In this document: positions 11,166 through 39,618 of the stretch, in pieces
Layout of the letters: each line of letters opens with the position of its first letter
How positions within the stretch are numbered: position 1 is the stretch's first letter
Origin: the human T2T-CHM13v2.0 reference genome, Homo sapiens
Assembly: GCF_009914755.1 (NCBI RefSeq)
Contig: NC_060938.1
Length of the DNA stretch: 64,000 bases
Strand: one strand, 5' to 3'
The notes under the pieces: model-generated
Databases searched by the model: none
Seen by the model: the letters and a program-made list of their open reading frames with translations, nothing else
What the model was told of the DNA's origin: nothing
Position numbers and translations under genes: made by a program

Positions 11166-11615
11166 ATGAATATGTAGAGAGTGAGAAAAGAATTCTCCAA
11201 TTCAGGCATAAAATAGCAATTTGACTATGAAAAAATCATGTAGAGCAAAATGTGTATATTTATCTTGTTACATAAATAAATGTAGATGAAGAACTGTGCC
11301 TGCCCACAAGCACCATTGCACGTATGCCTGTGCACGAATGTATACACCCTGTGCATGTAGAAGTACTAATGAACATCAGCAATGTGTGCTGGATAGTGAG
11401 CCACATGAAACATTAGGTATTCAAGGTAATAATTCCCTTCCTTAATAATTCATGCAAGATGTGTTGCCCAACAGCAAGAACCAGGCTTAAGGATACTGAT
11501 CAGTATGTTGAAAGGAGAAATTTGTAGCCCATATAAATGTTACAGCTAGTCTAGCCAAACAGAGAGCACTAATGTTTCTTATCATCCCCACCCCACCCTT
11601 TTTTTTTTGTCTTAG

Positions 11616-11929
11616 ATACATATGGAAAACTCTTTCTCCTCAATTCTGTGGGTCAAGAGATGTCCCGTTGCAAGACGTCCATTCGGCGTGGTCAGCCCAA
11701 TCCTGTCTATAAGGAGACCTTTGTTTTCCAGGTGGCCCTCTTTCAGCTGTCTGATGTCACGTTGATGATTTCCGTTTATAACAGGCGTACTATGAAGCGT
11801 AAAGAGATGATTGGCTGGATTGCCCTGGGCCAGAACAGCAGTGGAGAGGAGGAACAAGATCACTGGGAGGAGATGAAGGAAACCAAAGGCCAGCAGATCT
11901 GCAGATGGCACACTTTGCTGGAATCCTAG
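11616..11929 (+). CDS. SYT16: Synaptotagmin-16, last coding exon (C-terminal part of the C2B domain)
   Basis: Polypyrimidine acceptor ttttttttttgtcttag|AT. Translation (D)[103 protein letters not shown] has synaptotagmin C2B hallmarks (NPxYxExFxF, terminal WHxL) of the SYT14/16 type. Confidence 0.93.
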
Positions 11930-16135: not shown

Positions 16136-18351
16136 TTCCTCCTTACAGTCATGCCTGAAAAAGAAAATATTTAAGATGTGTCTTCTTTTTCTAGCAAATG
16201 TTATTATAACACTAGAGAAAAACAAAAACCAACGTTCAGATACTGTAACAAGGATAGGCTCATGAAGCCAGGCTGGATTCGTAAATAAAGGAGGCTTCAT
16301 CAGGACAGCCTAATCAGAGATAAGCCTGGTATGTGGAGGAAATTGAGCCTTAATAGAGTCCAACTGTGGTAGAACCAAGTCTTTGCATTTATCCCCTTAG
16401 TTTGGAGGGAGTACAAATCCTTGATGGTTTGTGTGTACCTCTTGATCGATCACAAACAAGGCCTCTCCTTGTCTCCAGTTCTCTTATTCATAAATGGACA
16501 AGGCATCTTGTCGCCTTTATCAAAAGAGTTGGTGACAATGGCAGTTTGACTACATATTTCAACTGTGATCCAAAAAAGTAAAATAAATGATGTGATACTA
16601 TACTGAGACTGTTTTAAAAATGGATAACACTTTCTTTAAAACCTGCATTATATATCCATTTTATATCCTGATAGCCAAACATTTTAAAATACTCTAATAA
16701 CACAGCTCTCAAAACGTATCTGTTTGACTGGAATGTCCTGCTCAGAACAAATTATCACTGTTTCCCTTATGAGATCCTAATGAAAGAAATTCAGTTGATA
16801 CTACTTTTTAAAATGGGTTTTAAGAGTGGCTTGTTGATATAATAGCGCATCCACTTGTTCTCAAGTGATTCAAACCTTGAGTAAAAAGGAGAGTTTCTGG
16901 AGAATTTAGAAGAATCTTTGTTGACATTTAATCTAGAGAAGTCTTCAGGAGCAAACCACTTCAAGTTCAGTGTAACCAGGTGCCATGAGTCAGTCATGTG
17001 CTACTTGTGGTTTTAAACGAAACATGATTCTGGGATGAGAAGTGCGAGGCTACACTCCTAATATAATCAAATTGCCAAAGCACTGTTTTGAGTCCTCGGT
17101 ATCCCAATTAAGGAGAAACATGAAGACATTGGAGAATCACTTAGCTTAGGGCTTTTAGTAGGGAATAATTAAACATGTAGGGAAGGTGAAGGAGTTAGAT
17201 GGGAGGTAAGAAGGCTGAGGAGATTTCTAGTAACAATGATCCAAAAGTTCTAACCAGGGGGATGGTGCACACTTTCTCTTCTTGACCACATGGATAGATT
17301 TCAGAGCATCCCTCTAAATCAAGTCTGGAGAATTATGTGAAGGTTGTTTCTCATTAATTCAAAATGTATTCATTGTCTAGTACTATGCTATCTGGGCTGG
17401 CACAGAACTTAAAATCTCTTTGGAGTGCTATGAGTGCACATTGAAGCAGTTGGTCATCATTATACAATGATGCTTACCAATATACAACTGTTAAGTTAGT
17501 CTAACTATGTGCCATAAACAGTAGAGTTCCTTGTTACTAGTATTGGAAGGTGAAACATTGGCTGAATTTATTGGGGCAAGTGTCTAGGAAGCCTTGGACT
17601 GGCAGTGAGTCTTGGTTGCATTATATGGGAAATTGGTGGGGATGGGGGTGTCATAGAATCATCATCTTTGGAAGTTTTTTAAAATAGAAAAATGTACTTG
17701 AAGTCTTGGTTCTGCTAAAGAAGAATGAGAGGACACCCATGAATATACCCTTTATAAAGTTCCTTCTAATATTTAGGTGTAACGTTAAAAAAGAATCAAC
17801 AATAACACTCCAGGCCTGTCTTCTTCCACTTTGGACATTTTTTCCACATTGATTTTTCTCTGCATCATAGAAAGTTTTCTCTGAAGAGTTCCTATTTGGG
17901 TTTTGTTTAGGGCTTTGGGGATGCCTGCAGGCTCAGGGGGAGTTTCCTCTCCTATGGTGCTTTGACTGTTTTTGTTTCCCTTGGGTCACAAAACCATATC
18001 CTAGACACACAGACAATAATCACCTTATTTATATCCACTGTGGAACCTGTGAAACAGCTCGAGGCTTTACAGAACAAGCTCATAGGCAGTCATGGAGATC
18101 TGAGGCCTTTCTTGGAATGAAGCCGCTAACTTGCTAACTGCTTTCCATTGCTCACTAATGCTGCCTTAAGGTTTCTTCATGGGAATTTTTACTTCATGCC
18201 TTTGAGTGACAGTGTTACCAGTTTTACCTTGAGGATGATGAGAAGGCTGACTTCCTATTGTATTGCCATATTTATGCATTATTTTTGTTTACGTCATTTC
18301 CCCCTTGAAGTATCTAGTTGCTGGGGTTTTGTTTGTTTTATACAAAATTTA

Positions 18352-24765: not shown

Positions 24766-26504
24766 TGGTAAGACTCTTGTTAAGTCAGTTAAGTTATGGC
24801 ATACTTACATTTTTAAAAAAATTATTTGAAATGTTGTGGTACTGGTGATTATTTATGAAAAGCTTATTGGTTGCTTAAGTTCTTTCTAACCCATGACAGC
24901 ACTAGAACACTATGGGCTGATTAAGGGTTCTACTTGTACTTTTACATCCATAGTCACCTTAGACTTAGACCATTTCAACACTTGAAGGAGCATTGTTGCA
25001 AATAAAGACTATTTGAGTTCACATTTCCAAAGCCACAGGGCAAAGAGTTTTGAGCTAGTAGGCTGAGCAAGATTGACCATTTCTACATGTGTATGTGCAC
25101 TAGTAGGTACATACATATATGGCATACTGAAAACATTAAAGCAAATATATGAGCAAAAGAAGAATAATGCAGAAGAAACATTTTTCCATATATGAATCTT
25201 AGAGTATGTCATCTGGAGAGCTTAAACTTGGCAAATGATTGCTATCTTGTGGCATTGCTTCAACACAGGCTTACCCATGCTGAAATGTTAAAATAATTGA
25301 GACAGCCATCTATGACTCTGGTTCTTTGGTTCTTTTTTTTTTTTTTGTCTTTTGTAGTAATTAAAAAATTGTGCTGTGTAGCATTTTATTGATAAGTCAA
25401 ATAAGTCAAATCACATTATATGTATTGTAAGCTTCATAGTCTCCTTACAGTTTCTCTGGGGTTGCTCCAGAAAGATTCAGAAATATGGCTCAAGGGGAAG
25501 CTTGGGTGACATTTCACAGTGCTGATAAATTTTAATGTGCATTCCACTACATAATAAAACATCTGATTCTTTTCAGTAAACAGATAAGAAGTAGGAGACA
25601 GGATTGGCATTATATCTATGGTCATGTCGAGGAGGGACAAGATTGAGTGGTGAGAAGATTAGAATTTGGATAGATTCTAAGGTAGGTAGTATGGAATTTT
25701 AATATGTATTTTAAAATCCAAAATTGTTTAGTGAAAGATTCTAATCTTACAAGGAGAATTGCAGAATTTATCCAATTATATATGCAGACATAAATAACAC
25801 AGTCGAGATTAAAATCATACCTGTTTTCTAATTCCAGTTATGCCATCAAGGAATCCTGTGATCTTGGATTACCTTGACCTTTCTTTCGTGTCTTCCAACA
25901 TCTGTTATATCTTGAGGTAGTCCCAGAGGAGGAGGGGACTTGGCAATTATTTGTTGATTTAAACTGACAATAGTAAAGATTTCCTAGTCCATTCAGATAA
26001 AGTATAACACTAGACATACCATCCATACTGGTCAAATTACCTAGCTGCTCCCAAATACATTTTTTTCTCCATAAGATATAGCGTGTTGTTATGGAGGCTG
26101 CTTTTACCTGAGGTAGAGGAGTATTTTAAGGAAAAATGAAACCGTTCATCTCGGAGGTCTCACAACCACTTTAGAGGGTGTGGAAAGACAAGAATTAGGA
26201 AAATATATAAATGACTTTAGGTGAGTATTTCCCAATGCTATTAAAATGCAGGTAGTGACCTTTATAAGATGTTTTGAAAAGGAAAAAAAAAAGTCACTTT
26301 ATAAACACAATGTCTCATTAAGGGAAGAAAACTATTTTCTGTATAACAGGCTTTCCCCCAGCTCCCTTCTTCTGCTTGAGTAACTGTAAAGACAGCAACT
26401 AGTGGCTGCCTTCAAGGTTAGTGTAAGTTCATGAACTGATAGCTACGTAGCTAAGGTGAAAACAGGGACCTCAAACCAGGCAGGGTGGATTCATCTATTC
26501 CCAG

Positions 26505-27999: not shown

Positions 28000-28920
28000 A
28001 GGGAGGAGAGTCCCAGAAGGCGGAAGATCCCGTACTGCTCATCCCCAAACGCCTCACCCCGGGTCACACCCACGAACTCATCCGGTTCTCCCTTCTCAGG
28101 GTCCTACTCCAAGGCGAAGAGTATCCCAGAGGAAGGGTCAGGGTCTTAAAAAAAAAAAAAAAAAAAAACACTGAGCCAAACCCCGCTGCTTCCTCAGCCG
28201 CTGAAAGTGCCGCCCCACCCCTCTCCCCAAACCCGACCTCCGTAGGGGACACCGAGCCAAGGCCTGCAGCGAGTGACCTGCCCGGGGAGGCGCGGGACCG
28301 AGGCTCACCTACCCGGGCCCGCGAGTCTCGCCCAGCCCCAGCCTCCCAACCCACTCTGCCGGCCCCAACTTAGGCGAGCGCAGTCGGGACCCTTCTGTCG
28401 GGGCTCTTTGTTCGCCGCCCCTCGGCGTTCCAGCTCTCAACCTTGCTCCCAGCAGCCCCCGCCGGCGCACTCGACCTACAGGAAAGTTGCTCCCGAGCTG
28501 TGGAGGGGCGTCATCGCCTCCTAGCAACGCTCCTAGCAACCGGGTAACATCTGCTCCCTGTGGTCCAATGCGAGCTGAGAACAGCTGCGCGCCCGCCTAG
28601 CGCTGCGAACCCGGAGTGAGAGGCGCTTCAGAGACTGGAGGGACGGACCTGCAGGAGCCAGGGCTGCCCGCCGAGCTGCAGTTGCCGCTACTGCCGCTGT
28701 CAGCGCCCGACTGAAGAGTGACAGCCGCAAAAGCAGGAGTGAGCACCGAACCCCGCGCTTCTACCTAACAGGTGCATGCGCCGATCTGGTGAGTGGACCC
28801 AGCTCACAAGGTATGTCTGGATTCATCCAGCCAGGTGCCTTCCTCCGAGCTCAGAAGGGACTCCTTTCCTTGAGGGGGAGGATAGGGACGTGTTCCGGGA
28901 TCCCACCCCGCCCCCAACCA
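28000..28920 (+). promoter_or_regulatory. CpG-island promoter and first exon of the downstream + strand transcript
   Basis: The only GC/CpG-rich segment in the window. It has a CCAAT box (28565-28569), tandem CCTAGCAAC RFX half-sites (28520-28540), and donors TCTG|GTGAGT (28788/28789) and CAAG|GTATGT (28810/28811). Confidence 0.85.
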
Positions 28921-29912
28921 CTGAAGAGTAGCCAGCTGCTGGTCCCAAATGACCTGATTCGATTTTTTAAATGTAAACCTTAGGATTGGTTCTTGGGTGA
29001 AGAGTCCGCTGCTCTTCGCTATTAGGTTAGCGTTCGGAAGTTTTCAGTCCTTGTTTTCCCGTTGACTTCGCTGCCTATGTGCAGCTAGGCTGGAAGCAGC
29101 AATCGCTGATAGAAAGCCTGTGGTTAAAGCTCAAACGACATAGTGTAGTCTCGACTAATTGAATCAACACGTATGGATAGCAACATTCTTTTTAGGTCCT
29201 CCTCTGGAAAGGGTCCATTTGGCCAAGAGCACTGTTCACTGTTACTCAACCTCCTGAAAAGTAACCATAGTAACTCACCTCTCTTTTGATGGGATCCTCC
29301 TTATTGGCTGCCTATCTTCCTTTGGAAAGCGCATCTCTCTAAATTTAGAAGATGATGAGATCCGTAAGCATACATCCATGTAGAAAAGGTGCAGTTAAAC
29401 ATGGCCCTTTAAAGAAATGCTGTCTTCAAAGAAAAAGTAGCATTTGGCGATTTCAAATCTTGTGAGAAAGAATGTGCATTCCAAAGAAAGACGGGGTTCG
29501 TGTTTTGAGCTAACTGCTGGTTTGTTACTTTAGAGGGAATACTTCCTGAAATTATATAAAATCTGGCATTAAAACTTAAGAATGACTCTGATTTTTTTAA
29601 AAAAATATCAGCCTACTGATAATCTTCCAAAAATAATCTCCCAAGTAAATAACTGGTAAGATGAGTTATTCAGTTATTTCCAAATGTCTTAGGATAGTTA
29701 AGATTCCTTATGTTTAAACTTAAATCTGGACAACACTGAAGTGATTGTGTGTGTTTGAAGGTTTATCTATCTATCTAGTCCAGACCAACCCCATCTCAAA
29801 TATCTTAGATAATATCCTCCTGCTGCAGGCTTTCTCCTGACTTGAGAACCAGTTCATGTCAGTGCAGTCCTGACTCGCCCGATGTTATTTGTGTCTGTCT
29901 CCTTGTTTCAAG

Positions 29913-30036
29913 ATCTCAGGTAACCATTCATGAGCCTGAGGCTGTGAGAAATGCTCGCTGTGCAAAGGGGAACTCTCACCAGATTTTCTGAAGCTGTTCT
30001 AGAAATACACTTTTCGGATTGATTCAGCATTACCAG
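29913..30036 (+). other. Candidate internal exon (possibly the decayed first coding exon of the SERTAD4-like gene)
   Basis: Acceptor tgtctgtctccttgtttcaag| and donor CCAG|GTAATT; all three frames contain stops. Confidence 0.45.
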
Positions 30037-32552
30037 GTAATTGCTAGCTTAAAAGAAATTACTGTTTAAATATGTATCCAGAGAAATGAATGCTAATGTA
30101 ACATTACCATAACTTATAAGATCAATATAAGGGGTTGTTTATATAGATGGTTGCTGGGTAGAAGTCAATAGAGGTTTTCTGTAAAAAGGACATTTGTGGG
30201 CTGGCTGATTTTCCTCTCTAAGATCCGTGTGAATAGGGTGGGCCAAATTAGGTAGCCTGGCTCCGGAAACATGCCAAGCGGAAGCCTACTGAGCACACGA
30301 GTGCATGTCCGAATGAAGGAAGTGAGGAGAACTCTCCAAGTTGCAGAAAGAGATTATTGTGATGTTTCAAATTTAATTTGCATAAGGTCATGAGGATAGA
30401 AACTTATGAGGCTTCAACATTTTAAACTCAATTTTCAAGACTGAATACGTCTTAAACGAGTGTTCAACCCTCCAGCATTTGTAACTTTCACATGTACTGT
30501 GCCCTTCCTATAGGTAACCAGCCTAGCAAATTGCAATCAAATTTATAAGAATATACCATGCTGCATTTCATCCCATTTCTTTCCTCCCTTTATAAAAATA
30601 AATAATTGACAATTTTTATTCAGAAACCTATTTGAAAATTTATTCTGGTCTAGTGGTACAGATTTATGAATACCGTGAGACTTTAAGATTATTGATCTCT
30701 ATAGTCACTTGTTTAAATATCTGTAGTTTAATAATTTTAAGGATTAAAGATTAGCATTTGAACTGTCAAAAATGTTGGTTTTGTTGGCCCTTAGCACCAT
30801 CCATCCTTCTTCATTTATCATACTGACTGTATTTTATGGTGAGAAACAACCCAAAGAGACCAATAATATTTACCGTCATCTGCCATGAGATGTGTACAGA
30901 GTTCCATTCATGCTATCAATCTGAGGAAAGTTTGAGCAAAGCAGCCACAATTATTGGTTCATGTAGGTGAATTAGTTGTGTGATTAGTAATTTATACCAC
31001 AGCCTGTCTCTTATGTCATGTGCATAAAAGTTGAAGATCATTCAGTGCCCTTTAATTTACGTGAATCAGTCTGCCCTTTCGTTGAGACTGCTGCCACAAT
31101 CCAAAAGGGCAATGAAAGAGGTTCTTAAATTTTAATTTTGATTCTATCATAAATGTGTAATATGCAGACTATATCCTGTGCAACTTTGATAAACGGATCT
31201 GTTTGAAAAGTCATTCATCAGAAAATTTTATGGTATTTAGCTTCAAAAAATAAAAATAAATCAAATGGTATCATTATAATATCCACATTTAATCCTGGAG
31301 ACATTGGTGGGTCCAAAGTTAGAGTGTGGAAGAAAATTCCACCAATTTTTATTTAAGGATCTAGTCACCCTCATCAATTTGAACACCAGCTGCACTTGTA
31401 TATGTAATGGGTTATAAAGAAGGCATGCACTTAGGAGTATAAGATTTGGCTAAAGCTGAGATCAAGCAGGTTAAAACTAAACCAAATTCTAATTTCAGTC
31501 TTTTTTACTCATATACTCTATTTGGAAGTTTTTAGGCATGTGTGAAAATTCTATGTTCAATTTTATGTCATGTAAACTTCATGGAATTTAGAAGACGCCT
31601 TGATGCAGACAGAGATGTTGAAAACTTTTATCAAGAGGTTGAGGCCCTTACCTCCATACCTGGGCTCTCTACTGATGACTCATGTCAGCTGGCATCCCAA
31701 CAATAACTCTAAAGCCAAGGAATAATCAGTTCAGATTGCTCTATTTGTCAAAGCAATATGCCTCAGAAACCTAGAAAAAGCTAAACTGCTAACTCTGAAG
31801 CAGAGGTAGGAGTACATTGACCAAAACCATTCAGCACTAAAACGAAGGAAGGATACCTTTGAGTTTTGGGAGAGGCCAATCCTTGTCGATTCTTTTTTCC
31901 TTTTTCTTTTTAAGTTGTTTATCTAAATAGTGTTAATACATTAATGTTTACCCTTTGTAATCTAACACCATTTTTTATATTTTCTTTTTTCCTAATTAAA
32001 TTTATACAAATGGGCTAATTAACAGAGCCATCCAATTCACTGCAATAATTCTCAGCTGGGGGGAAGGGGTGGCGGAAGGATATTACTGAAAAGCACTAAG
32101 AGCTAACCAATGTTGTCCTCAATATTGTAATATAGCCTTATGTTTAGAAAACAAAAGAACGACAGAAAGTGAAGTGCAGCAAAAAGGCTTCTTGGTAGAA
32201 ACACAAGAAACACAAGATCTGAACATCAGTGGTGCTTAGAAGGACAGGAGGTACACGTTTGAGGCTGGGAAGTCTACTCTGCGTGTGTATTTCAGAGTAC
32301 ATATTGTTTTCAAAGTGCTTAGGAAAAGGGAGCATGAGTAAGGAACATGAAGAAAAGTTGGGAATATTGTAAAGAGAGACAAGACTCAAGAGCCTAGAAC
32401 CTCAATTCTGCCTCCATGTGCTGCTCATTTTACTGCTTTATGGCTCATTTTCTCTCTATCTAATGTGGGATATAAGACTACAAGCTTAAGTAGATTGCTT
32501 GAGCATGAATGTAACACAATTTAATGAAGCAACTGTAGCTCTGTAAGAAAAA

Positions 32553-32900
32553 CTTTTATGTTCACGGGTACCTGTGCAGGACTGTTACACGGGTGAATTG
32601 TATGCCACTGGGTTTGGTCTACAGATTATTTCACCACCCCCATAATAAGTGTAGTACCTGAGAGGTAGTTTTTGTATCCTCACCCTCCTCCCTCAAATAG
32701 GCCCCTGTGTCTGTTCTTTGCGTTCATGTGTACTCAGTGTAGCTCCCACTTATAGATGAGAAGATGCAGTATTTGGTTTTCTGTTCATGTGTTAGTTCTC
32801 TTAGGATAATGGCTTCCAGCTCCGTCTATGTTGATGCAAAGGACATGATTTCATTCTTTTTTTATGGCTGTGTAGTATGGCTGTGTGCTATTCCATGGAA
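32553..32900 (-). mobile_element. Older primate L1 3' end
   Basis: GGGTACCTGTGCAGG..GCTCCCACTTATAGATGAGAAGATGCAGTATTTGGTTTTCTGTTC..GCAAAGGACATGATTTCATTCTTTTTTTATGGCTG. Confidence 0.85.
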
Positions 32901-34194
32901 GCACCTATATAGCTCTTTAGCGAAAAGGTACCCTGTGAATGAAAATTATTTCACCACTAGAGCAACTCCAGGTGAAACACAAATCAGATACCATATGAGT
33001 GAGGGCAGAGAGTCACCCAACTCCACGCGAATCCTCATGTGTTTTAAAGTGAGTAAAATTAATGATTAATTCAATCTTATGTTTTTTTACAACCCTTTTG
33101 GGATAGCAGAAGCAACGTTGGCGTGGATAGATGTTTTTGTTAATATACTCAAGCATGGAGTGGTGGTGGTAGTGATATCAAAGTGGAAGACAATGTGAGT
33201 GATATAGATCAGGTACTTTTAGAAAGGCTGCTATTATCCATAGGTTAGGGATTAAAACTCTTTTCTTTGAGTACCAGTCCTGGGTATCGAGGGAAGTTGT
33301 AGTATCTCTCTAGCATATCTCTAGGTATGGATTTCTTGGAACCCATATACTGCAATGTGCTTCCAAAAAAGCAATTTTCTTTCTAATTCATTTCTACTTT
33401 CCAAGGTAAAAGATGGGGTAAAAGGAAGCATCATTCCTCAGAATCAGGAATGCACTTCTAGGGGGTGGAAAATCAAAAAGTTTACCCAAGAAGCCTCCTG
33501 CACTTCGCCTCTAAATTTCTGTCATTAGCAGGGCCAGATCACGGCAGCAACTGGCTTTAGTGCAGCATCTAAGGAAACCTAATGGTGTTCTGTTTGGTTC
33601 AGAGACCATTACCATTGGAGCAGGATAGGCTTGTGGAACTGGTGGGGTTTTCTTTACTATTCCATGCCTGTGCTTGGGGTTATCCCAAGGGACATGGATG
33701 CAATCTAGTACCAGACAATGCTGCTGGTATCTTGAGAAACTCTTCTAAGTCATTGGCTCTCAGTATTCCTGGAAGTTCCTAAGAAAGTCTGCTCGAGCTG
33801 GAACTTGTTAGTAATTCTAAATTGCCAGTAAAGTCAATATTGTGCTTGGGGTGGATAAATCTGAAGAAACAGATTGCTCCATTGATTTGGAGATAAAACC
33901 TGACACTGAGCTCTGCTACCATAAAGGATATTATCCAGAAAGGTGATAGGCAAGGGGGTTATGAGAGAGAAGAAAGATGGCTGATGGAAAATTGTTAAAC
34001 ATCAACAGAGCCAAAGGTCTCCAGAAGGCACAGCATCATAGCCTTGAACTTTGCACCCATCTACCTTCTTGAATACACTCATGAATGCTTCATGCAGCCC
34101 ATGCTTAGCACTAAAGAGAGGACCAATGTCCTAGGTATAATATAATGCTGCTGAGCAGGATATGTACTTATGATTTCAAAATGAAGTCACTGCA

Positions 34195-34415
34195 ATAATA
34201 ATACGTAACATTTACTGAGCAGGAAATATGAGCACATGTGACAGGCACTGAGTAACTGCTTTTTAAACATCATCTCTTCTAATTCCAGTAAAACTCAATG
34301 AGTTTGGTATTGTCCCCCCGTTTAACAGATAAAGAAAAGTTAGGCTCTTTGAGTTTAAATATCTTGGCCAAAGTCAGTAAGCAAATAAACTGTAGAGCTG
34401 GTATTTGAACTAGTG
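34195..34415 (-). mobile_element. MIR SINE
   Basis: ACATTTACTGAGC..TTTAACAGATAAAGAAA..CTTGGCCAAAGTCA..GAGCTGGTATTTGAAC. Confidence 0.7.
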
Positions 34416-35874
34416 CCGTTGGACAGAACTAGAAGGTTATGCTGAAGTATTTCAAGCCATGCAGTGAGACTGCAGAATGTGGTTAGCAGGGACAGATGGG
34501 GTAACTCTTTCTAATCAACTGTGGTCATGGCCCTTAAGGAAATATCTCCAGTAGCTTTGTCACCAGCAAATCATTATTTAGCTAGATAGGGACAATTGCA
34601 CTTTTAAAGGCTCATGCCAGGCTAACATGTTACAAAGAAAAATCAGTAAGACATTGTGAAGCTGAGGTGCCTGATTTATCTTTAACACAAGTCAGTTGTT
34701 GATCTGAGATGGAACCCACCTTCTTTCTTGTCATTGATCAGCCTCCACCCCTTCTGTCTGTGGGTAGGATGCACACATCTAATAGGATGGTTTCAACTCT
34801 GTTTTTGGAATGTTTTGATTTAAATGTTGTGGGGGGAAAAATGAAAGCCAAACTAAAATTAGGATATATTGAACTGATCACTTCTTCACCATGTCTCCAG
34901 CTTTGAGTCTTGACAAAGAATGGATTGCTTTGACAGGAGTTGTTCTTTTTACTGTGGTCTGTTATCTCAAAGTGTTTGTAAATTAATTTGCTGATGATGT
35001 TTCCTTAATGTACTGTCTCCAGACCATGTACCAAATGAAATCACTTACACCGTAATAGGATTTCAGTTTTCTGGAGGCAGAAGCAGAGCAATGAGGAAGA
35101 GCATTTGAGCAATCATTTGTAATTACATTTTAAACATTTATTTAAAGAATTATATAAAAATTATATTGCTAGAACTCTAATGACAGGGATGGTCACTCTG
35201 TTCTGTAACTTTTAATTTGTTGGTTATTTATGTTTTATACTACCAAATACACTGAGCTTGGCACAGATATTTTATGGGCCCAGAGGATATAGCATTAGAA
35301 ACAGCTTGAATATTCAAGCCATCATTAGCCATTTCACTTTCAGAGACAAATTTAGGCTCAGCCTAATTCAGTTTTGTAATTTACATACTGTTCTCAGAGC
35401 TCAGAACACTCAGAATGTGAAGACATAAAGTCATTTCATTTTTTTTCTTGTCTATTTCGTCATCTTTATTTGAATAATAGGCTGGGTTAAGTTTGGCCTT
35501 TTAGTTGCAGGAGAACTATAACAGATTTACACATGTTTACTGAATCATAACAACCAAACTTCTTTGGATAGTCAGATCAACTTTAATTAATTATCCAGAT
35601 GATTACCTGTATGTTTCAAAAATAGTTTACACCTCCTTCACCCAAAATGCATGACCAGTGGCAATACACCAGAAATATTTGGAGTTGTTATAGAATCTGT
35701 ACTACGTTTTTTCAACTTGATCATTTGCAATATCTTCTTGCAGTTTTTTTTAACTGTCTAATTACAATCTAGTATCTTTGGGAGGCAGGGTGGTGGAGTC
35801 TTTGAGTCAGAGCTAGGAGGCCAGGCTGGGCTCTGCTTCTATGTGGTAGATTTGTGACTAATGGCACAAATAAG

Positions 35875-36095
35875 GTCTACAATTTGATTGAGTGTTTACT
35901 ATATGCTAGGCACAGTGCCAGTCACTTTCCATGAATTATTTCAATGATCTTATGAGCCAGTGTTATTTCTATCCTTACTTTACAAATGAGATTTCTAGAG
36001 AGTTTATGTAATTTGCTCAAAGTCACTCAAATAAGAAGCAGCAGAGCTGGAATTCAGACCACTTCCATCTGACTTCAAAACCCAAACTCATAGCC
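35875..36095 (-). mobile_element. MIR SINE
   Basis: ATTGAGTGTTTACTATATGCTAGGCAC..TTTACAAATGAG..TTTGCTCAAAGTCAC..GCAGAGCTGGAATTCAGACC. Confidence 0.75.
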
Positions 36096-37181
36096 ACGTG
36101 CCAGAATGTAAATTATTGAACTCGTCTGGGCTGTAGTTTTCTCATCTGGACACTGAGGAGGCTGAATCAGGTGATGGATACATAGTTATCAGCTCCGAAT
36201 GTTTTGAGTTCTAATCCAGCCAAGCAAACAGATGTAGGAACTTATGTTTGCTATATATTTTAACCTAAAAGTGGCTAGAACCATCCTCCAAAATTGATAC
36301 TGAAAACATTTTAAATAGCTAAACAGCTTTCAGGGAGATAATTGTCAAACTGATACCAGCTGTGAAGGCTTTTCAGCATTTTAACAACCCATGTGGGTAT
36401 TTTTTAAGAGCAATAAACTAAATGGCTAAGTGTGTTGCCCACGGAGGAGCTGAGACTCAAATCTAGAACTCCTGGGAATTTTCTCTGTATTTTCAGGATC
36501 TGATACATTCAGTATATTAGGCTAATTGGTTGATGATAGCCAGACAGTCTTTATGAACCTTGGAATCATTTGATATGATTTTTTTGGTCTTGATCTGTCA
36601 AATAAAAATATCTTTCCTGGAGGTACACTTGGGATCCAGAACTATAAGTTTATTTGTCATTTGGTTCTCTAATCTGCCACCTGCCTTCCCTTGTATTACT
36701 CATTAAAAGATTCTTAATTGGTCATAAATGCTGTAGATATTGCATTACATTGGAAGATAAAATGAGCAGACATTTTAAAAAGATACATATAAGAAAGTCA
36801 TGTTTGCTCATGATGAAGTTACTCATCTCATTTTCTAGCCTTTTCTCACTGTCACCTACACTATAGTAATTCATTAGAGCTTGTTAAAAAAATTAGAGAC
36901 CTGCCCAGCTATCATGCTAATAATAGCCATTGATGCTTCTCAATGTGAACCCAGGAAAAGTGACTTCATTCTTCACTATTTAGTTAAAATGCAGTCTGGC
37001 TTTGTTCATGAGGCTAAAGCATCTAAGCCAGTGTAGGGAAGCAATAGCAACAACAACAACAATCAATCAAACCAATTGCCTGGCATTCTATTGATATGGC
37101 AATCAGCTGATTGACTGAATGTTCTGCTCTTAACTTGTTGCCATAGTGCTACTACTACACCTGCTGAATGCTGCAACCTAG

Positions 37182-37365
37182 AGGCTCTCAAAATGCAATC
37201 CCCAGACTGGCAGCATCAGCATCACCTGGAAATTTGTTAGAAATGCAAATTCACTGCTGCTAGCCCAGATCTACTGGATTAGAAACTCTGGGGGTGGGAC
37301 CCAGCAATTTGATTTAACATACCCTCCAGATAATTCTGATGCTCACTAACATTTGAAAACTACCA
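37182..37365. mobile_element. MER5A-like hAT-Charlie DNA transposon
   Basis: GCAGCATCAGCATCACCTGGAAATTTGTTAGAAATGCAAATTC..GAAACTCTGGGGGTGGGACCCAGCAAT..ATTCTGATGC. Confidence 0.85.
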
Positions 37366-39017
37366 TTACATCAATTAGTGAAACAGTTTAAAAAAAAAGT
37401 ACAAGTAATTGTCACACGGGATAACCCAAAGCTTCACCTAATTATTTGATTAAATCCTTAAAAAATATACCAAAGAAAATGCAGTTTACTAAAAAACAGC
37501 CCCTGAGAAACCTGGTTTCAGTGATGCTTTCTTTGTTCTCTCTACAATCAGCTTTGTTCTTCTTTCCTAAACTTTTGAAATCATTGAAAACTCTATATAA
37601 GCTGAGTTTGCTTACTGAATTCAGGGACTGTGTAGGTATAGTAGTAGCAACTATTGTCTTTGCTTCAGTTCACTTGTGAATTATCATGACATATTCATTT
37701 CTTTTAAGATCAGATACACCACTGTTTTAAAATTCTTCATTCCCTTAACAAAACATAACAACTATAACTTAAGGCTTTCTTGGGTTAATAATCCACAGTG
37801 ATGTCAGTGGAAAACTGGAATGCTTGGGAATGATTTTGTAGCTTTTCTTACTGACTGAGGAAAATCATTTAGCTACAAAAAGTTGCGGGAAGCTTTTGTA
37901 GCTTAGATGCACTGAGTTGGAGGACAAACTAGAAAAAGCAAATTCTTGAACACATTTAAAATATTTAAGCTTAGAAAAATTTAAGATTTTAGAGGAAAAC
38001 CATCAAATGTCTTGCTGTAGATTTATTTAACTAACACATACATTATTCATTCTTTTGTGAACTAAATGGTTTCAACACATAGAAATATTTGAGGATGTGT
38101 ATTAAGGGTAAAATAAATTATGTTTAAATATGAAGTTTCTTTCTGGCCTGGTCCCCCGAGGTTGAATGAGAATTGAACTGGACTCAATTTGTTTTCTAAA
38201 TTCATTCAGTGCTTTCTCTAGAAGCTGCTTGTCTTTAGCTTTGAAAGTAGATCTTGCCTCCTTTTTGTGATATGAGTGCCACCTAGAGTACACTCTGAGA
38301 ACTCCCTTAAGCACTATCGTTAAACTAAACGATAACTGAAAATTGGCTTTTGGAACTCCGTCCTTCCTTAAGCAAGTAAGAACCTCAGTAGCAATCGTAT
38401 TTTAAAGGAGAAAACAAAGGTCTTCACTTTCAGTATTATGACAAGGTCAAGTTTGCAAGTCAGAACGTTACCTAAATCTTTCATTTACTTAGAACACCAT
38501 TAAACCATGTGTTAGGACGATGGCTACACCATAATCATATCATAGAGTGTTTTGTCTACAGATACACCATTATTTCTTTAAAGTGTAATTGGGCTGCCAA
38601 CTATTTTATGCCAATTTGATTAACCTAGTGACACTAAATGATCTCTCTGTATTAGGCAGTTTAACTAAAAGAATGATGAAAAATTTCTTTTCTCCTCCCA
38701 TTACATTCCATTTCAAATTTGGGTGTGTTTTGACATTAAATGGCATGAAATAAAATAGTATATTGGTATTTGACTTCTGAGGGGCTGCATAAGGAAATAA
38801 ACATGAGTATCCTATCTAGAACATCTGTTTTGGGTCTGAATGGTGGTATTTTCCTGCCTGCAGGCTTTTCAATCCAGGGCAGTTGTCACTGCTTCACCAC
38901 GTTGAAGGGAGAATACCAATTTCCAGGATCACCAGTTTATTTTTATAGATAAAAGTTATATTATAAGATACTATTTGCCACAATAAAATCTAACCTTTCC
39001 CCAATTATTTTGTTTAG

Positions 39018-39133
39018 CTTATCCAACAAAAGTATTAACATATACATTAACAACGTCGAAAGTAGCCTACTTTAAGAGAAAATATGCAGAAGAAGAAGAT
39101 TTACATCAAGATTACCATGGGTATTTTCCAAAA
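39018..39133 (+). CDS. SERTAD4-like coding (or formerly coding) exon, 116 nt, phase 1 to phase 0
   Basis: ttattttgtttag|CT TAT CCA...TTT CCA AAA|gtaagg. Open frame xYPTKVLTYTLTTSKVAYFKRKYAEEEDLHQDYHGYFPK aligns without gaps to the recalled SERTAD4 segment [39 protein letters not shown]. Confidence 0.8.
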
Positions 39134-39243
39134 GTAAGGGTTTACTTATTATTATTTGTTCATTTTCATGAATGTTGTCAACATAAAAAGCTGTAGTTTT
39201 TGTTTTTCTAAATATAGATTTAATGATCATGTTTGCTTTCCAG

Positions 39244-39618
39244 CACCTGATATTACCTGAGGACAGAACTTGCATTCTCAAACTTTCTCTGGAGAAGCTC
39301 AGGTTTCTTGAAGACCCAGAAACCTACTTAAGAAGGTCTGTGTTAATTAACAATTTGCTGAGGAAGATACATCTAGAGACGGAGAAAGAGAGCTATGAAT
39401 ACTTTAAAGAAGCTCCCTGTTATAAGACTGCATATTCTGATACAAGAAAACGGCTGAAGTTTATGGTACAGGAATGCTGTTCTCAGTCTCTCTATTATGA
39501 AGAGCTGCATTCGTATCATATTGTGCCTTATGCTTCGGAGAATGCCATTTATGAAATGGGCTACACTAGCAGCCACTTGGAGCAAAATTCTCAGTTGCTT
39601 ATTTATAAAATGAATTAA
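39244..39618 (+). CDS. SERTAD4-like terminal exon encoding a SERTA domain (124 codons plus stop)
   Basis: Acceptor gtttgctttccag|CAC in phase 0. [38 protein letters not shown] carries the SERTA signature (SLxKL...LRRSVLIxN) and matches recalled SERTAD4 [38 protein letters not shown] at 26/38 positions. Confidence 0.85.

What the first reader, a model, noticed from the sequence alone, without database searches (positions are those of the whole stretch)
28776..39618. A splice path gives an intact 167-aa ORF starting in the CpG-island exon
Seen: ATG CGC CGA TCT G|gtgagt (28776-28788) ends in phase 1 at a strong donor, and the exon at 39018 needs exactly phase 1. Joining 13+116+375 = 504 nt gives MRRSAYPTKVLTYTLTTSKVAYFKRKYAEEED...SERTA...IYKMN* (167 aa). 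The stop falls in the presumed last exon, so it should escape NMD. Caveats: the Kozak context is weak (-3 T, +4 C), and a phase match has a 1-in-3 chance. If the 29913 exon is included, the same ATG yields only MRRSDLR*. Inference: exon skipping could switch the transcript between non-coding and coding.
Basis: partly seen in the sequence, partly recalled or inferred. Interest (0 to 1): 0.8.

Follow-up and report, generated by a model that had tools for sequence, protein, structure and literature searches.

The report
Intact SERTAD4B reading frame lacking a start
A human locus filed as a pseudogene or long non-coding RNA still carries the undamaged, almost unchanged coding body of an old vertebrate gene, and the splice path proposed here is one untested way of giving it the start codon that its annotated RNA lacks.

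Summary
The arithmetic holds. ATG 28776 to 28788, followed by GTGAGT, joined to 39018-39133 and 39244-39618 gives 504 nt and 167 codons.

Of these codons, 163 are the body of SERTAD4B, the old sister gene of SERTAD4. It has a SERTA motif and a UPF0730 tail, the same intron phases as SERTAD4, and the same neighbour type: SYT16 here, a SYT16-like gene beside SERTAD4. The human body matches five Laurasiatherian mammals at 161 of 162 residues. Neutral drift longer than about 0.02 substitutions per site is rejected.

GENCODE already flagged these exons and called the locus a unitary pseudogene (PMC6886504 supplement). The lesions I could find lie only upstream of the conserved body.

The four-codon leader is unproven:
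- RefSeq's donor is 22 nt downstream (28810) and is out of frame with this ATG.
- The GTGAGT donor seems absent or weakened in 3 of 7 other mammals, and the frame differs in a fourth.
- Exon-2 skipping does appear in four other species' gene models.
- No junction or ribosome data could be consulted.

The parts
28518..28570 (+). Conserved promoter block just upstream of the RefSeq start: two tandem copies of CTCCTAGCAAC (28518-28528, 28530-28540), a CCAAT at 28565-28569, and an ATG at 28568-28570 that begins the fur seal model's ORF
   Evidence: Sequence. Translations of this block match ORF-derived proteins from turtles, beaver, bichir, Arapaima and Danionella. Fur seal P0221 residues 1-45 match 28568-28702 at 93%, with a human TAG at codon 11.
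28579..28810 (+). RefSeq exon 1 (CpG island). The frame starting at its first base is open for all 77 codons and is in phase with exon 3 at the annotated donor, but it holds no ATG.
   Evidence: This frame is open in 6.5% of Markov resamples.
28776..28788 (+). It is the only ATG of exon 1 and has a weak Kozak context.
28789..28794 (+).
   Evidence: Rough matrix score 10.2 bits. It cannot be read back in 2 of 7 other species' records and is weakened in a third.
28811..28816 (+). GTATGT, the RefSeq exon-1 donor (the exon ends at 28810). It is phase 2 from ATG 28776 and phase 1 for the cap-open frame.
   Evidence: Hub annotation.
29913..30036 (+). RefSeq exon 2. It is orthologous to a coding exon of turtle and crocodilian models. 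In human it has three stops in the SERTA frame (29931-29933, 29937-29939, 30000-30002), so it acts as a poison exon.
   Evidence: tblastn matches of crocodile P0003, alligator P0011 and Trachemys P0229 to 29913-30029 at 47-56% identity.
38921..39017 (+). The 3' end of intron 2. Camel and two unnamed records read through it in frame from ATGs placed differently in each record; koala's ten-residue leader aligns here only weakly. Human needs two frame changes here and has stops.
   Evidence: [quoted passage not shown]
39018..39133 (+). Exon 3: phase-1 acceptor, 38 whole codons, with the TTSKVAYFKRKY motif shared with SERTAD4 exon B
39244..39618 (+). Coding part of exon 4 (124 codons plus TAA). 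SERTA motif at 39274-39378, UPF0730 tail at 39472-39609, human-only Glu codon GAA at 39553-39555, and ATG 39469 of the 51-aa UniProt ORF.

Best explanation
This gene is the vertebrate-wide sister of SERTAD4. It lies downstream of SYT16, just as SERTAD4 lies downstream of the SYT16-like gene on chromosome 1.

Shown:
- The body (exon 3 plus the first 375 nt of exon 4, 163 codons) has no stop or frameshift.
- It carries a SERTA helix hairpin and the UPF0730 tail.
- It differs from five Laurasiatherian mammals at one residue.
- The annotated RNA lacks only a start. Exon 2 carries three stops in this frame and also ends the ORF from the only exon-1 ATG, so it behaves as a poison exon.

Inferred: the locus still makes, or made until the last 10-20 million years, a nuclear SERTA-domain protein of about 170 aa from transcripts that skip exon 2. 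Two in-frame routes exist for that:
This is the only AUG route.
(b) The annotated donor at 28810, from which the frame is open back to the first base of the RNA. This route would need a near-cognate start, for instance the CUG at 28786 with G at -3 and +4.

I put about 45% on a protein being made by some route, and about a third of that on route (a).
For: - Identity: Pfam SERTA, E 4.4e-14, and UPF0730, E 3.3e-25, matching the whole 47-position model.
- Only one paralogue in the genome, SERTAD4 on chromosome 1. It has the same intron phases (1, then 0, after a Lys codon).
- SYT16's last exon has its closest paralogue 77 kb upstream of SERTAD4 on the same strand.
- The two gene clades separate at 100/100 support, each holding both fish and tetrapods.
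- Constraint: 161/162 identity to camel, fur seal, buffalo, ibex and sheep; 158/162 beaver; 151/162 koala; 145-150/162 turtles; about 102/154 sharks.
- A neutral simulation gives P(at most one residue change and no stop) = 0.12 at K=0.01, 0.006 at K=0.02 and 0.0003 at K=0.03.
- The region whose indels fit GENCODE's disablement (intron 2's 3' end) is about 70% alike between the camel record and unnamed P0155, where the body is 100% alike. Its ATGs sit at different places in each record.
- Exon-2 skipping appears in the fur seal, pangolin, dingo and beaver models.
- Route (a): the donor ranks in the top 0.3% of GT sites, and 28776 is the first AUG of the RNA.
- Route (b): 240 codons are open from base 1 of the transcript.
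Against: - No in-frame AUG exists in the RefSeq RNA before the 51-aa ORF.
- GENCODE and RefSeq curators call the locus a unitary pseudogene (hub annotation).
- The one human change, Gly to Glu at 39553-39555, hits a residue that is Gly in all 19 amniote rows. That could be the first sign of relaxed constraint.
- A 2025 preprint reports the RNA as mainly nuclear (passages).
- The only mass-spectrometry mention I found is a single row in a follicular-fluid table.
- No start is shared by the other mammals' models: 12 named mammalian models use at least six different upstream sources.
- Route (a) cannot be the general mammalian start. The donor or phase fails in 4 of 7 records, yet pangolin still has the conserved body as far as its partial 106-aa model reaches.
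- I had no DNA of other mammals, so dN/dS on the primate branch could not be measured.
Confidence: 0.45

Rival explanations
1. This is a young unitary pseudogene that now acts, if at all, as a nuclear long non-coding RNA (the GENCODE/RefSeq view). The start was lost in the ape or human lineage, and the body looks intact only because too little time has passed.
For: [quoted passage not shown]
- Its Ensembl biotype is transcribed_unitary_pseudogene.
- The annotated RNA has no AUG for the frame.
- Exon 2 has three stops in that frame.
- The human-only Gly to Glu change sits at a conserved site.
- The neutral simulation cannot exclude drift of K 0.01 or less (P 0.12-0.45).
- The RNA is reported as nuclear, and its effects are attributed to 'exon 3' as RNA.
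Against: - GENCODE gives the point of pseudogenisation as 'primate / rodent'. That is hard to square with 161/162 identity in human and with intact bodies in beaver, vole and jerboa. Drift of K 0.02 or more is rejected.
- The only lesions I could find lie outside the constrained body, in a stretch that evolves about as fast as intron.
- Dingo lacks an in-frame AUG on its exon-1-to-exon-3 model in the same way, so the lack of a start is not peculiar to human.
Confidence: 0.4
2. A minority of transcripts use the GTGAGT donor at 28789 and skip exon 2, and the first AUG (28776) then gives the 167-aa protein. Including exon 2, or using the 28810 donor, switches the RNA to non-coding.
For: - The ORF arithmetic holds.
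- 28776 is the first and only AUG of exon 1.
- The donor scores 10.2 bits against 9.8 for the annotated one, and this is one of only 3 such paths in 15 kb.
- In fur seal, Bactrian camel and unnamed P0260 the amino-acid strings allow ATG plus GT at 16 nt instead of 13, so the phase is kept across a 3-nt length difference.
- The beaver model's junction falls near this donor.
Against: - RefSeq does not use this donor.
- The fur seal, pangolin and dingo models use the 28810-type donor.
- The donor cannot be read back in pangolin (Leu-Pro-Ala-Ser) or in P0262 (Leu-Leu-Thr-Ser). In dingo it would have C at +3. In beaver the ATG frame is out of phase.
- The Kozak context is weak.
- All the cross-species points are read from predicted proteins, not from DNA.
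Confidence: 0.15
3. The start is a near-cognate codon on exon-2-skipped transcripts that use the annotated donor. The frame is open from the cap, and a CUG at 28786-28788 (G at -3, G at +4) or another non-AUG codon starts a protein of about 171 to 240 aa.
For: - Exon 1 frame 0, plus exon 3 and exon 4, gives 240 codons with no stop.
- That frame is open in only 6.5% of resamples, and it is the one frame that is in phase.
- Fur seal and pangolin models read this frame at the junction. A Leu is kept at the CUG position in all five records that read this frame: fur seal, pangolin, P0260 and P0262, plus human.
- GENCODE notes other genes whose conserved frame extends upstream of any ATG.
Against: - No data on initiation were available.
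- The upstream part of exon 1 changes frame between species, so any long extension is not conserved.
- Near-cognate starts are usually weak (established knowledge).
- AUG 28776 lies 10 nt upstream in another frame and would capture some ribosomes.
Confidence: 0.15
4. The body is translated as an alternative C-terminus of SYT16, from read-through transcripts that splice SYT16's penultimate exon to 39018.
For: - SYT16's last intron is phase 1, the same as exon 3's acceptor.
- An NCBI model named 'synaptotagmin-16 isoform X1' in swamp buffalo makes exactly this join (...NRAP|AYPTKV).
- Ibex, sheep-hybrid, green turtle and two fish records also fuse SYT16 to this ORF.
Against: - Most of the fusions join after SYT16's last coding exon and come from automatic pipelines that tend to merge a neighbour lacking a start.
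- The hub's annotation lists SYT16 exons only as far as 24045.
- The locus has its own conserved promoter and CpG island.
- A phase match has a 1-in-3 chance.
Confidence: 0.05
5. Only the 51-aa UPF0730 peptide (the UniProt Q86TS7 ORF, ATG at 39469) is made from the annotated RNA.
For: - It is the first in-frame AUG of the SERTA frame in the RefSeq RNA.
- It matches the whole Pfam UPF0730 model.
- It appears once in a proteomics table.
Against: - Five upstream ATGs (exons 1-3) precede it on the RNA.
- The constraint covers all 162 residues, not just the tail.
- Teleost orthologues have no Met at that position.
Confidence: 0.05

Closest known systems
SERTAD4 (human chromosome 1; Pfam SERTA family PF06031)
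   Same: - A SERTA motif in the last exon.
- A preceding small exon with the TSK-x-x-YFKRKY motif.
- Identical intron phases.
- A synaptotagmin-14/16-type gene upstream on the same strand.
   Different: - SERTAD4 has its own ATG exon (MTLVLS...) conserved from fish to human, and a tail of about 200 aa.
- The 4B body stops 124 codons into the last exon and ends in the UPF0730 motif instead.
- The two are 44% identical over the SERTA region and form separate clades.
GENCODE 'edge-case' unitary pseudogenes found by PhyloCSF (Mudge et al. 2019, PMC6886504), e.g. the TMEM30CP and 4930504O13Rik-orthologue rows of Supplemental Data S3
   Same: This very locus is listed there (ENSG00000186369, region rank 275): conserved coding signal, transcribed, and no valid start in human. 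[quoted passage not shown]
   Different: Here the whole conserved body is intact and 161/162 identical to distant mammals. The lesions I found lie in a poorly conserved upstream stretch. A concrete AUG route exists on paper.
Poison-exon / alternative-donor switches between coding and non-coding isoforms
   Same: Including exon 2 ends every frame that enters it from exon 1. Skipping it restores a long frame.
   Different: No junction data were examined here. In known cases the coding isoform is the annotated one.
LINC00643 as a tumour-suppressive nuclear lncRNA (bioRxiv 10.1101/2025.09.16.676559)
   Same: It is the same transcript. [quoted passage not shown]
   Different: They treat the conservation as an RNA feature. 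The words peptide, SERTA and pseudogene do not occur in their main text. Here the same exons are shown to be the coding body of a vertebrate protein.

Membership tests
SERTA-domain proteins (Pfam PF06031) | Match to the SERTA motif model above the curated cut-off | tested here: met
   52.3 bits against a cut-off of 25, E 4.4e-14, residues 11-45 of the exon-4 peptide. The motif is modelled as a helix hairpin with pLDDT above 90.
UPF0730 (Pfam PF15827) | Full-length match to the 47-position model | tested here: met
   88.2 bits against a cut-off of 25, E 3.3e-25, model positions 1-47 of 47.
SERTAD4B, the ancient paralogue of SERTAD4 | Separate clade from SERTAD4 that spans fish to mammals | tested here: met
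   The two clades separate at 100/100 support. The 4B clade holds sharks, coelacanth, teleosts and tetrapods.
SERTAD4B, the ancient paralogue of SERTAD4 | Shared exon structure and paralogous neighbourhood | tested here: met
   Introns of phase 1 and phase 0 at matching positions. SYT16's last exon has its closest paralogue 77 kb upstream of SERTAD4 on the same strand. The name SYT14 for that gene is recalled, not tested.
Unitary pseudogene | Coding orthologues in other species and no intact copy elsewhere in the genome | tested here: met
   90 relatives in the near-length search and 50 in the longer-length search. Only SERTAD4 besides the locus itself is found in the human assembly.
Unitary pseudogene | Disabling lesion (stop, frameshift or lost splice site) inside the conserved coding sequence | tested here: not met
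   There is no stop or frameshift in the 163 codons, and both introns have GT-AG ends. Stops and frame changes occur only in exon 2 and at the 3' end of intron 2.
Unitary pseudogene | Relaxed constraint on the lineage | tested here: inconclusive
   There is one human-only residue change in 162. Drift of K 0.02 or more is rejected and K 0.01 or less is not. No primate DNA was available for dN/dS.
Protein-coding gene | AUG-initiated ORF on an annotated transcript | tested here: not met
   In NR_015358.2 the SERTA frame has no AUG before the 51-aa ORF.
Protein-coding gene | Evidence of translation (footprints, peptides) | not testable with these tools
   I found only one table row naming Q86TS7 in a follicular-fluid proteome. 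No Ribo-seq data were at hand.
   No RNA-seq or long-read data were at hand. The only indirect evidence is that four other species' models skip exon 2.

The most novel reading that the evidence does not exclude
Human SERTAD4BP/LINC00643 is a mis-filed protein-coding gene. It makes a SERTA-domain protein of about 167-171 aa from exon-2-skipped transcripts, so the tumour-suppressive effects ascribed to its 'conserved exon 3' may be protein effects. In addition, mammals as a group keep this 163-codon body almost invariant without any shared AUG, which implies either start-codon turnover or non-AUG initiation as the normal mode for this gene.
Probability: 0.35. Interest if true: 0.8.

Novelty: new member of a known kind. 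Interest (0 to 1): 0.6.

Why it matters
If the human locus is coding, a sixth human SERTA-domain protein has been missed. This is a family of nuclear co-regulators of E2F/CDK4-type pathways (established knowledge about SERTAD1-3 and CDCA4; not tested here). Work that treats LINC00643 as a pure RNA, including the 2025 glioblastoma preprint that maps its activity to the conserved exon 3, would then need a protein control.

The locus is also a clean test case for a wider annotation problem. It is a frame kept at 161/162 residues across roughly 90 million years (a recalled date) on each lineage. Yet 12 named mammalian gene models give it at least six different starts, and GENCODE calls it dead. 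Either the pseudogene call or the assumption of an AUG start is wrong. Junction counts, initiation-site profiling and a knock-in tag can settle the question directly.

Tried and rejected
- DNA of other mammals for a dN/dS test: none of the collections holds it.
- A vole-type first coding exon (vole model P0001, starting MDDKSEETDC): it matches 33854-33940 at 73% identity. In human the place of the Met reads GTG or GGG, and two stops follow ...YYPER. I rejected it as a human start.
- A dolphin-type upstream exon (Pontoporia P0154): it matches 25893-25952, but human has no ATG after the preceding stop and no GT at the junction. Rejected.
- A sheep-type block at 16480-16575: it lies inside the SYT16 3' UTR and was not pursued.
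- The fur-seal-type start at ATG 28568: in human it lies 9 nt upstream of the RefSeq start (its last base at 28570), hits TAG at codon 11 and is in another frame. Musk deer and unnamed P0259 and P0264 also stop early. Rejected as a conserved start.
- An ATG at the 3' end of intron 2 (camel type): human has stops and two frame changes there.
- The 'protein-coding orthologues' of PMC7555810: the rabbit gene is only 156 bp, that is, the 51-aa ORF. That paper therefore adds no independent evidence.
- One literature search was badly framed and returned nothing on this locus.
- No fold search was run. The model is a single helix hairpin plus disorder, which would give meaningless matches. No complex prediction was run.

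Full report
**1. The observation**

ATG CGC CGA TCT G occupies 28776-28788 and is followed by gtgagt. Joining 28776-28788, 39018-39133 and 39244-39618 gives 504 nt and an unbroken 167-codon frame ending in TAA at 39616-39618. The context is -3 T, +4 C. With exon 2 included, the same ATG and donor give seven codons and a stop. The exon lies in a CpG island (GC 0.66, CpG o/e 0.79 over 28300-28799), and 28776 is its only ATG.

From that donor the ATG is in phase 2. It gives 37 aa on the annotated RNA and 30 aa if exon 2 is skipped.

I scored donors on a rough matrix built from recalled consensus frequencies. The two donors are equally good, at 10.2 and 9.8 bits, and both fall in the top 0.4% of 3334 GT sites. 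Only three paths from an ATG to a phase-1 donor of 8 bits or more exist in the 15 kb upstream of exon 3, and only this one lies in an annotated exon. The coincidence is mildly unlikely, about 1 in 20 for an exon of this size. It is not compelling on its own.

**2. What the frame is**

Four codons are the leader. The other 163 are a real gene body.

- The exon-4 peptide matches Pfam SERTA (E 4.4e-14) and the whole UPF0730 model (E 3.3e-25).
- The human assembly holds one relative, on chromosome 1. Reading that locus shows SERTAD4 with an ATG exon, a small exon carrying [11 protein letters not shown] and a last exon with the SERTA motif. The intron phases are the same as here: phase 1, then phase 0 after a Lys codon.
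- SYT16's last coding exon, at 11616-11929 in this window, has its closest paralogue 77 kb upstream of SERTAD4 on the same strand. The two pairs are therefore old duplicates.
- A tree separates a SERTAD4 clade from a '4B' clade at 100/100 support. The 4B clade runs from sharks to mammals.
- An AlphaFold model of the exon-4 peptide, built on a 38-row alignment, gives a confident helix hairpin for the SERTA motif (residues 5-19 and 25-55, pLDDT above 90). The rest is low-confidence.

**3. How well it is kept**

A search of 1.8 billion representative proteins found 169 relatives, 13 of them at E 1e-30 or better. The named database gave 90 relatives of similar length and 50 longer ones.

Identity to the human sequence over the 162 residues downstream of the junction codon:

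| Species | Identical residues |
|---|---|
| camel, fur seal, buffalo, ibex, sheep (each) | 161/162 |
| beaver | 158/162 |
| koala | 151/162 |
| four turtles | 145-150/162 |
| crocodile | 145/162 |
| two birds | 137/153 |
| three frogs | 108-128 (of 157-162) |
| coelacanth | 99/155 |
| two sharks | 101-104/154 |

The stop is at the same place in every amniote row (most teleosts run three to five residues past it). The single human difference is Glu (GAA, 39553-39555) where all 19 amniote rows have Gly.

A neutral substitution simulation of the 486 nt gives the following:

| Drift on the human lineage (substitutions per site) | P(at most one residue change and no stop) |
|---|---|
| 0.005 | 0.45 |
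| 0.01 | 0.12 |
| 0.02 | 0.006 |
| 0.03 | 0.0003 |

Taking recalled, approximate primate divergences, constraint cannot have been lost much before the great-ape stage.

**4. What is already in print**

GENCODE's PhyloCSF study lists exactly these exons as candidate coding regions, rank 275. It re-filed ENSG00000186369 from lincRNA to unitary pseudogene. [quoted passage not shown] The mouse counterpart 1700086L19Rik is also called a unitary pseudogene. (PMC6886504; I saw main-text passages and rows of Supplemental Data S1 and S3. Files 1 and 8 were not searched.)

PMC7555810 lists the locus among human pseudogenes, but its rabbit 'orthologue' is only 156 bp, the 51-aa ORF (passages and a supplement).

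A 2025 preprint treats LINC00643 as a nuclear lncRNA whose 'highly conserved exon 3' carries its tumour-suppressive activity. Its main text holds none of the words peptide, SERTA or pseudogene (passages only, supplements closed).

Literature searches gave these counts:
- SERTAD4BP: 1 paper.
- SERTAD4B: 1 paper.
- UPF0730: 1 paper, where the only mention is a table row.
- LINC00643: 36 papers, 30 titles seen.
- SERTAD4 together with 'unitary pseudogene': 0 papers.

**5. Where the lesions are**

They lie upstream of the conserved body.

Exon 2 is orthologous to a coding exon of crocodile, alligator and Trachemys models (47-56% identity in the SERTA frame, with an in-frame two-codon gap). In human it has three stops in that frame.

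The 3' end of intron 2 is read through in frame by the camel model and by two unnamed records; koala's ten-residue leader aligns there only weakly (46% over 15 residues, E 0.28). In human it needs two frame changes and contains stops. This fits GENCODE's stated disablement. That stretch, however, is about 70% alike between the camel record and unnamed P0155, where the body is 100% alike. Its ATGs sit at -33 (camel), -20 and -18 (the two unnamed records) and -10 (koala) codons. It therefore looks like intron rather than a lost N-terminus.

More generally, the predicted N-termini disagree everywhere. Twelve named mammalian models draw them from at least six sources:
- the end of intron 2;
- exon 1;
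- SYT16;
- blocks matching 25893-25952, 29189-29233 or 33854-33940;
- an unplaced exon.

By contrast, SERTAD4's MTLVLS start is shared from fish to human.

**6.

Exon-2 skipping has outside support. The fur seal, pangolin, dingo and beaver models join exon-1 sequence straight to exon 3.

Fur seal, pangolin and dingo use the 28810-type donor. In dingo the model then reads exon 3 in the wrong frame, just as the human ATG would.

I read the amino-acid strings of seven records back onto the human three-frame translation. This is an inference from predicted proteins, not from DNA.
- The Met is seen directly only in dingo. It is merely allowed in the other six.
In all three the distance from the ATG is 16 nt rather than 13, so the phase is kept.
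- The GT is absent in pangolin (Pro-Ala) and in P0262 (Thr).
- In dingo it would have C at +3.
- In beaver the ATG frame is out of phase.

So 3 of 7 allow the route and 4 of 7 do not. Pangolin nevertheless has the conserved body, as far as its partial 106-aa model reaches.

A second in-frame route exists. With the annotated donor and exon 2 skipped, the frame is open for 240 codons from the first base of the RefSeq RNA, but it has no AUG. An exon-1 frame is open in 6.5% of resamples. A CUG at 28786 with G at -3 and +4 sits in it.

A third route is a SYT16 chimera. SYT16's last intron has the same phase, and an NCBI buffalo model makes that join.

**7. Verdict**

The specific start is one of several candidates and is unverified.

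My odds:
- about 45% that the human locus yields a SERTA-domain protein by some route;
- about 40% that it is a young pseudogene or a pure lncRNA;
- about 5% each for a SYT16 chimera and for the 51-aa peptide alone.

The locus and its conserved frame are already known. What is new is a concrete AUG route, together with evidence that the published pseudogene argument rests on lesions outside the constrained body.

Noticed in passing
window 28518-28570: There are two tandem copies of CTCCTAGCAAC followed by a CCAAT box, just upstream of the RefSeq start. Translations of this block match ORF-derived records from turtles, beaver, camel, dingo, bichir, Arapaima and Danionella, so the promoter DNA seems to be kept from fish to human. 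The repeat resembles an RFX X-box half-site; that resemblance is recalled and not tested.
   Followed up: partly
window 11606-11617 and 39018: SYT16's last intron and the acceptor of exon 3 are both phase 1. A splice from SYT16's penultimate exon to 39018 would therefore be in frame. An NCBI swamp-buffalo model named synaptotagmin-16 isoform X1 does exactly this, and five other records fuse SYT16 to this ORF.
   Followed up: partly
window 39553-39555: This is the only human-specific residue change in the 162-residue body: Glu (GAA) where all 19 amniote rows have Gly. Whether it is fixed in humans or shared with apes could not be checked.
   Followed up: no
window 33854-33940: A block in intron 2 matches the predicted N-terminus of the bank vole model at 73% identity (E 3e-8 in the whole-protein search, 1e-11 with the N-terminus alone). 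In human it has no ATG and is followed by two stops.
   Followed up: yes
window 28771-28772: ctaacag|GTGC looks like a 3' splice site inside exon 1. The pangolin model appears to splice an upstream exon onto this point, which would make 28772-28810 a 39-nt exon there.
   Followed up: no
window 25893-25952 and 16480-16575: Two further blocks match upstream exons of a river-dolphin model and a sheep-hybrid model (57% and 53% identity). Neither gives a usable human start.
   Followed up: partly
window 39018-39133 (literature): A 2025 preprint ascribes the tumour-suppressive activity of LINC00643 to its 116-nt 'exon 3' expressed alone. That fragment has no in-frame ATG, so if the result holds it argues for an RNA-level role of the same exon that encodes the most conserved N-terminal motif.
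   Followed up: no
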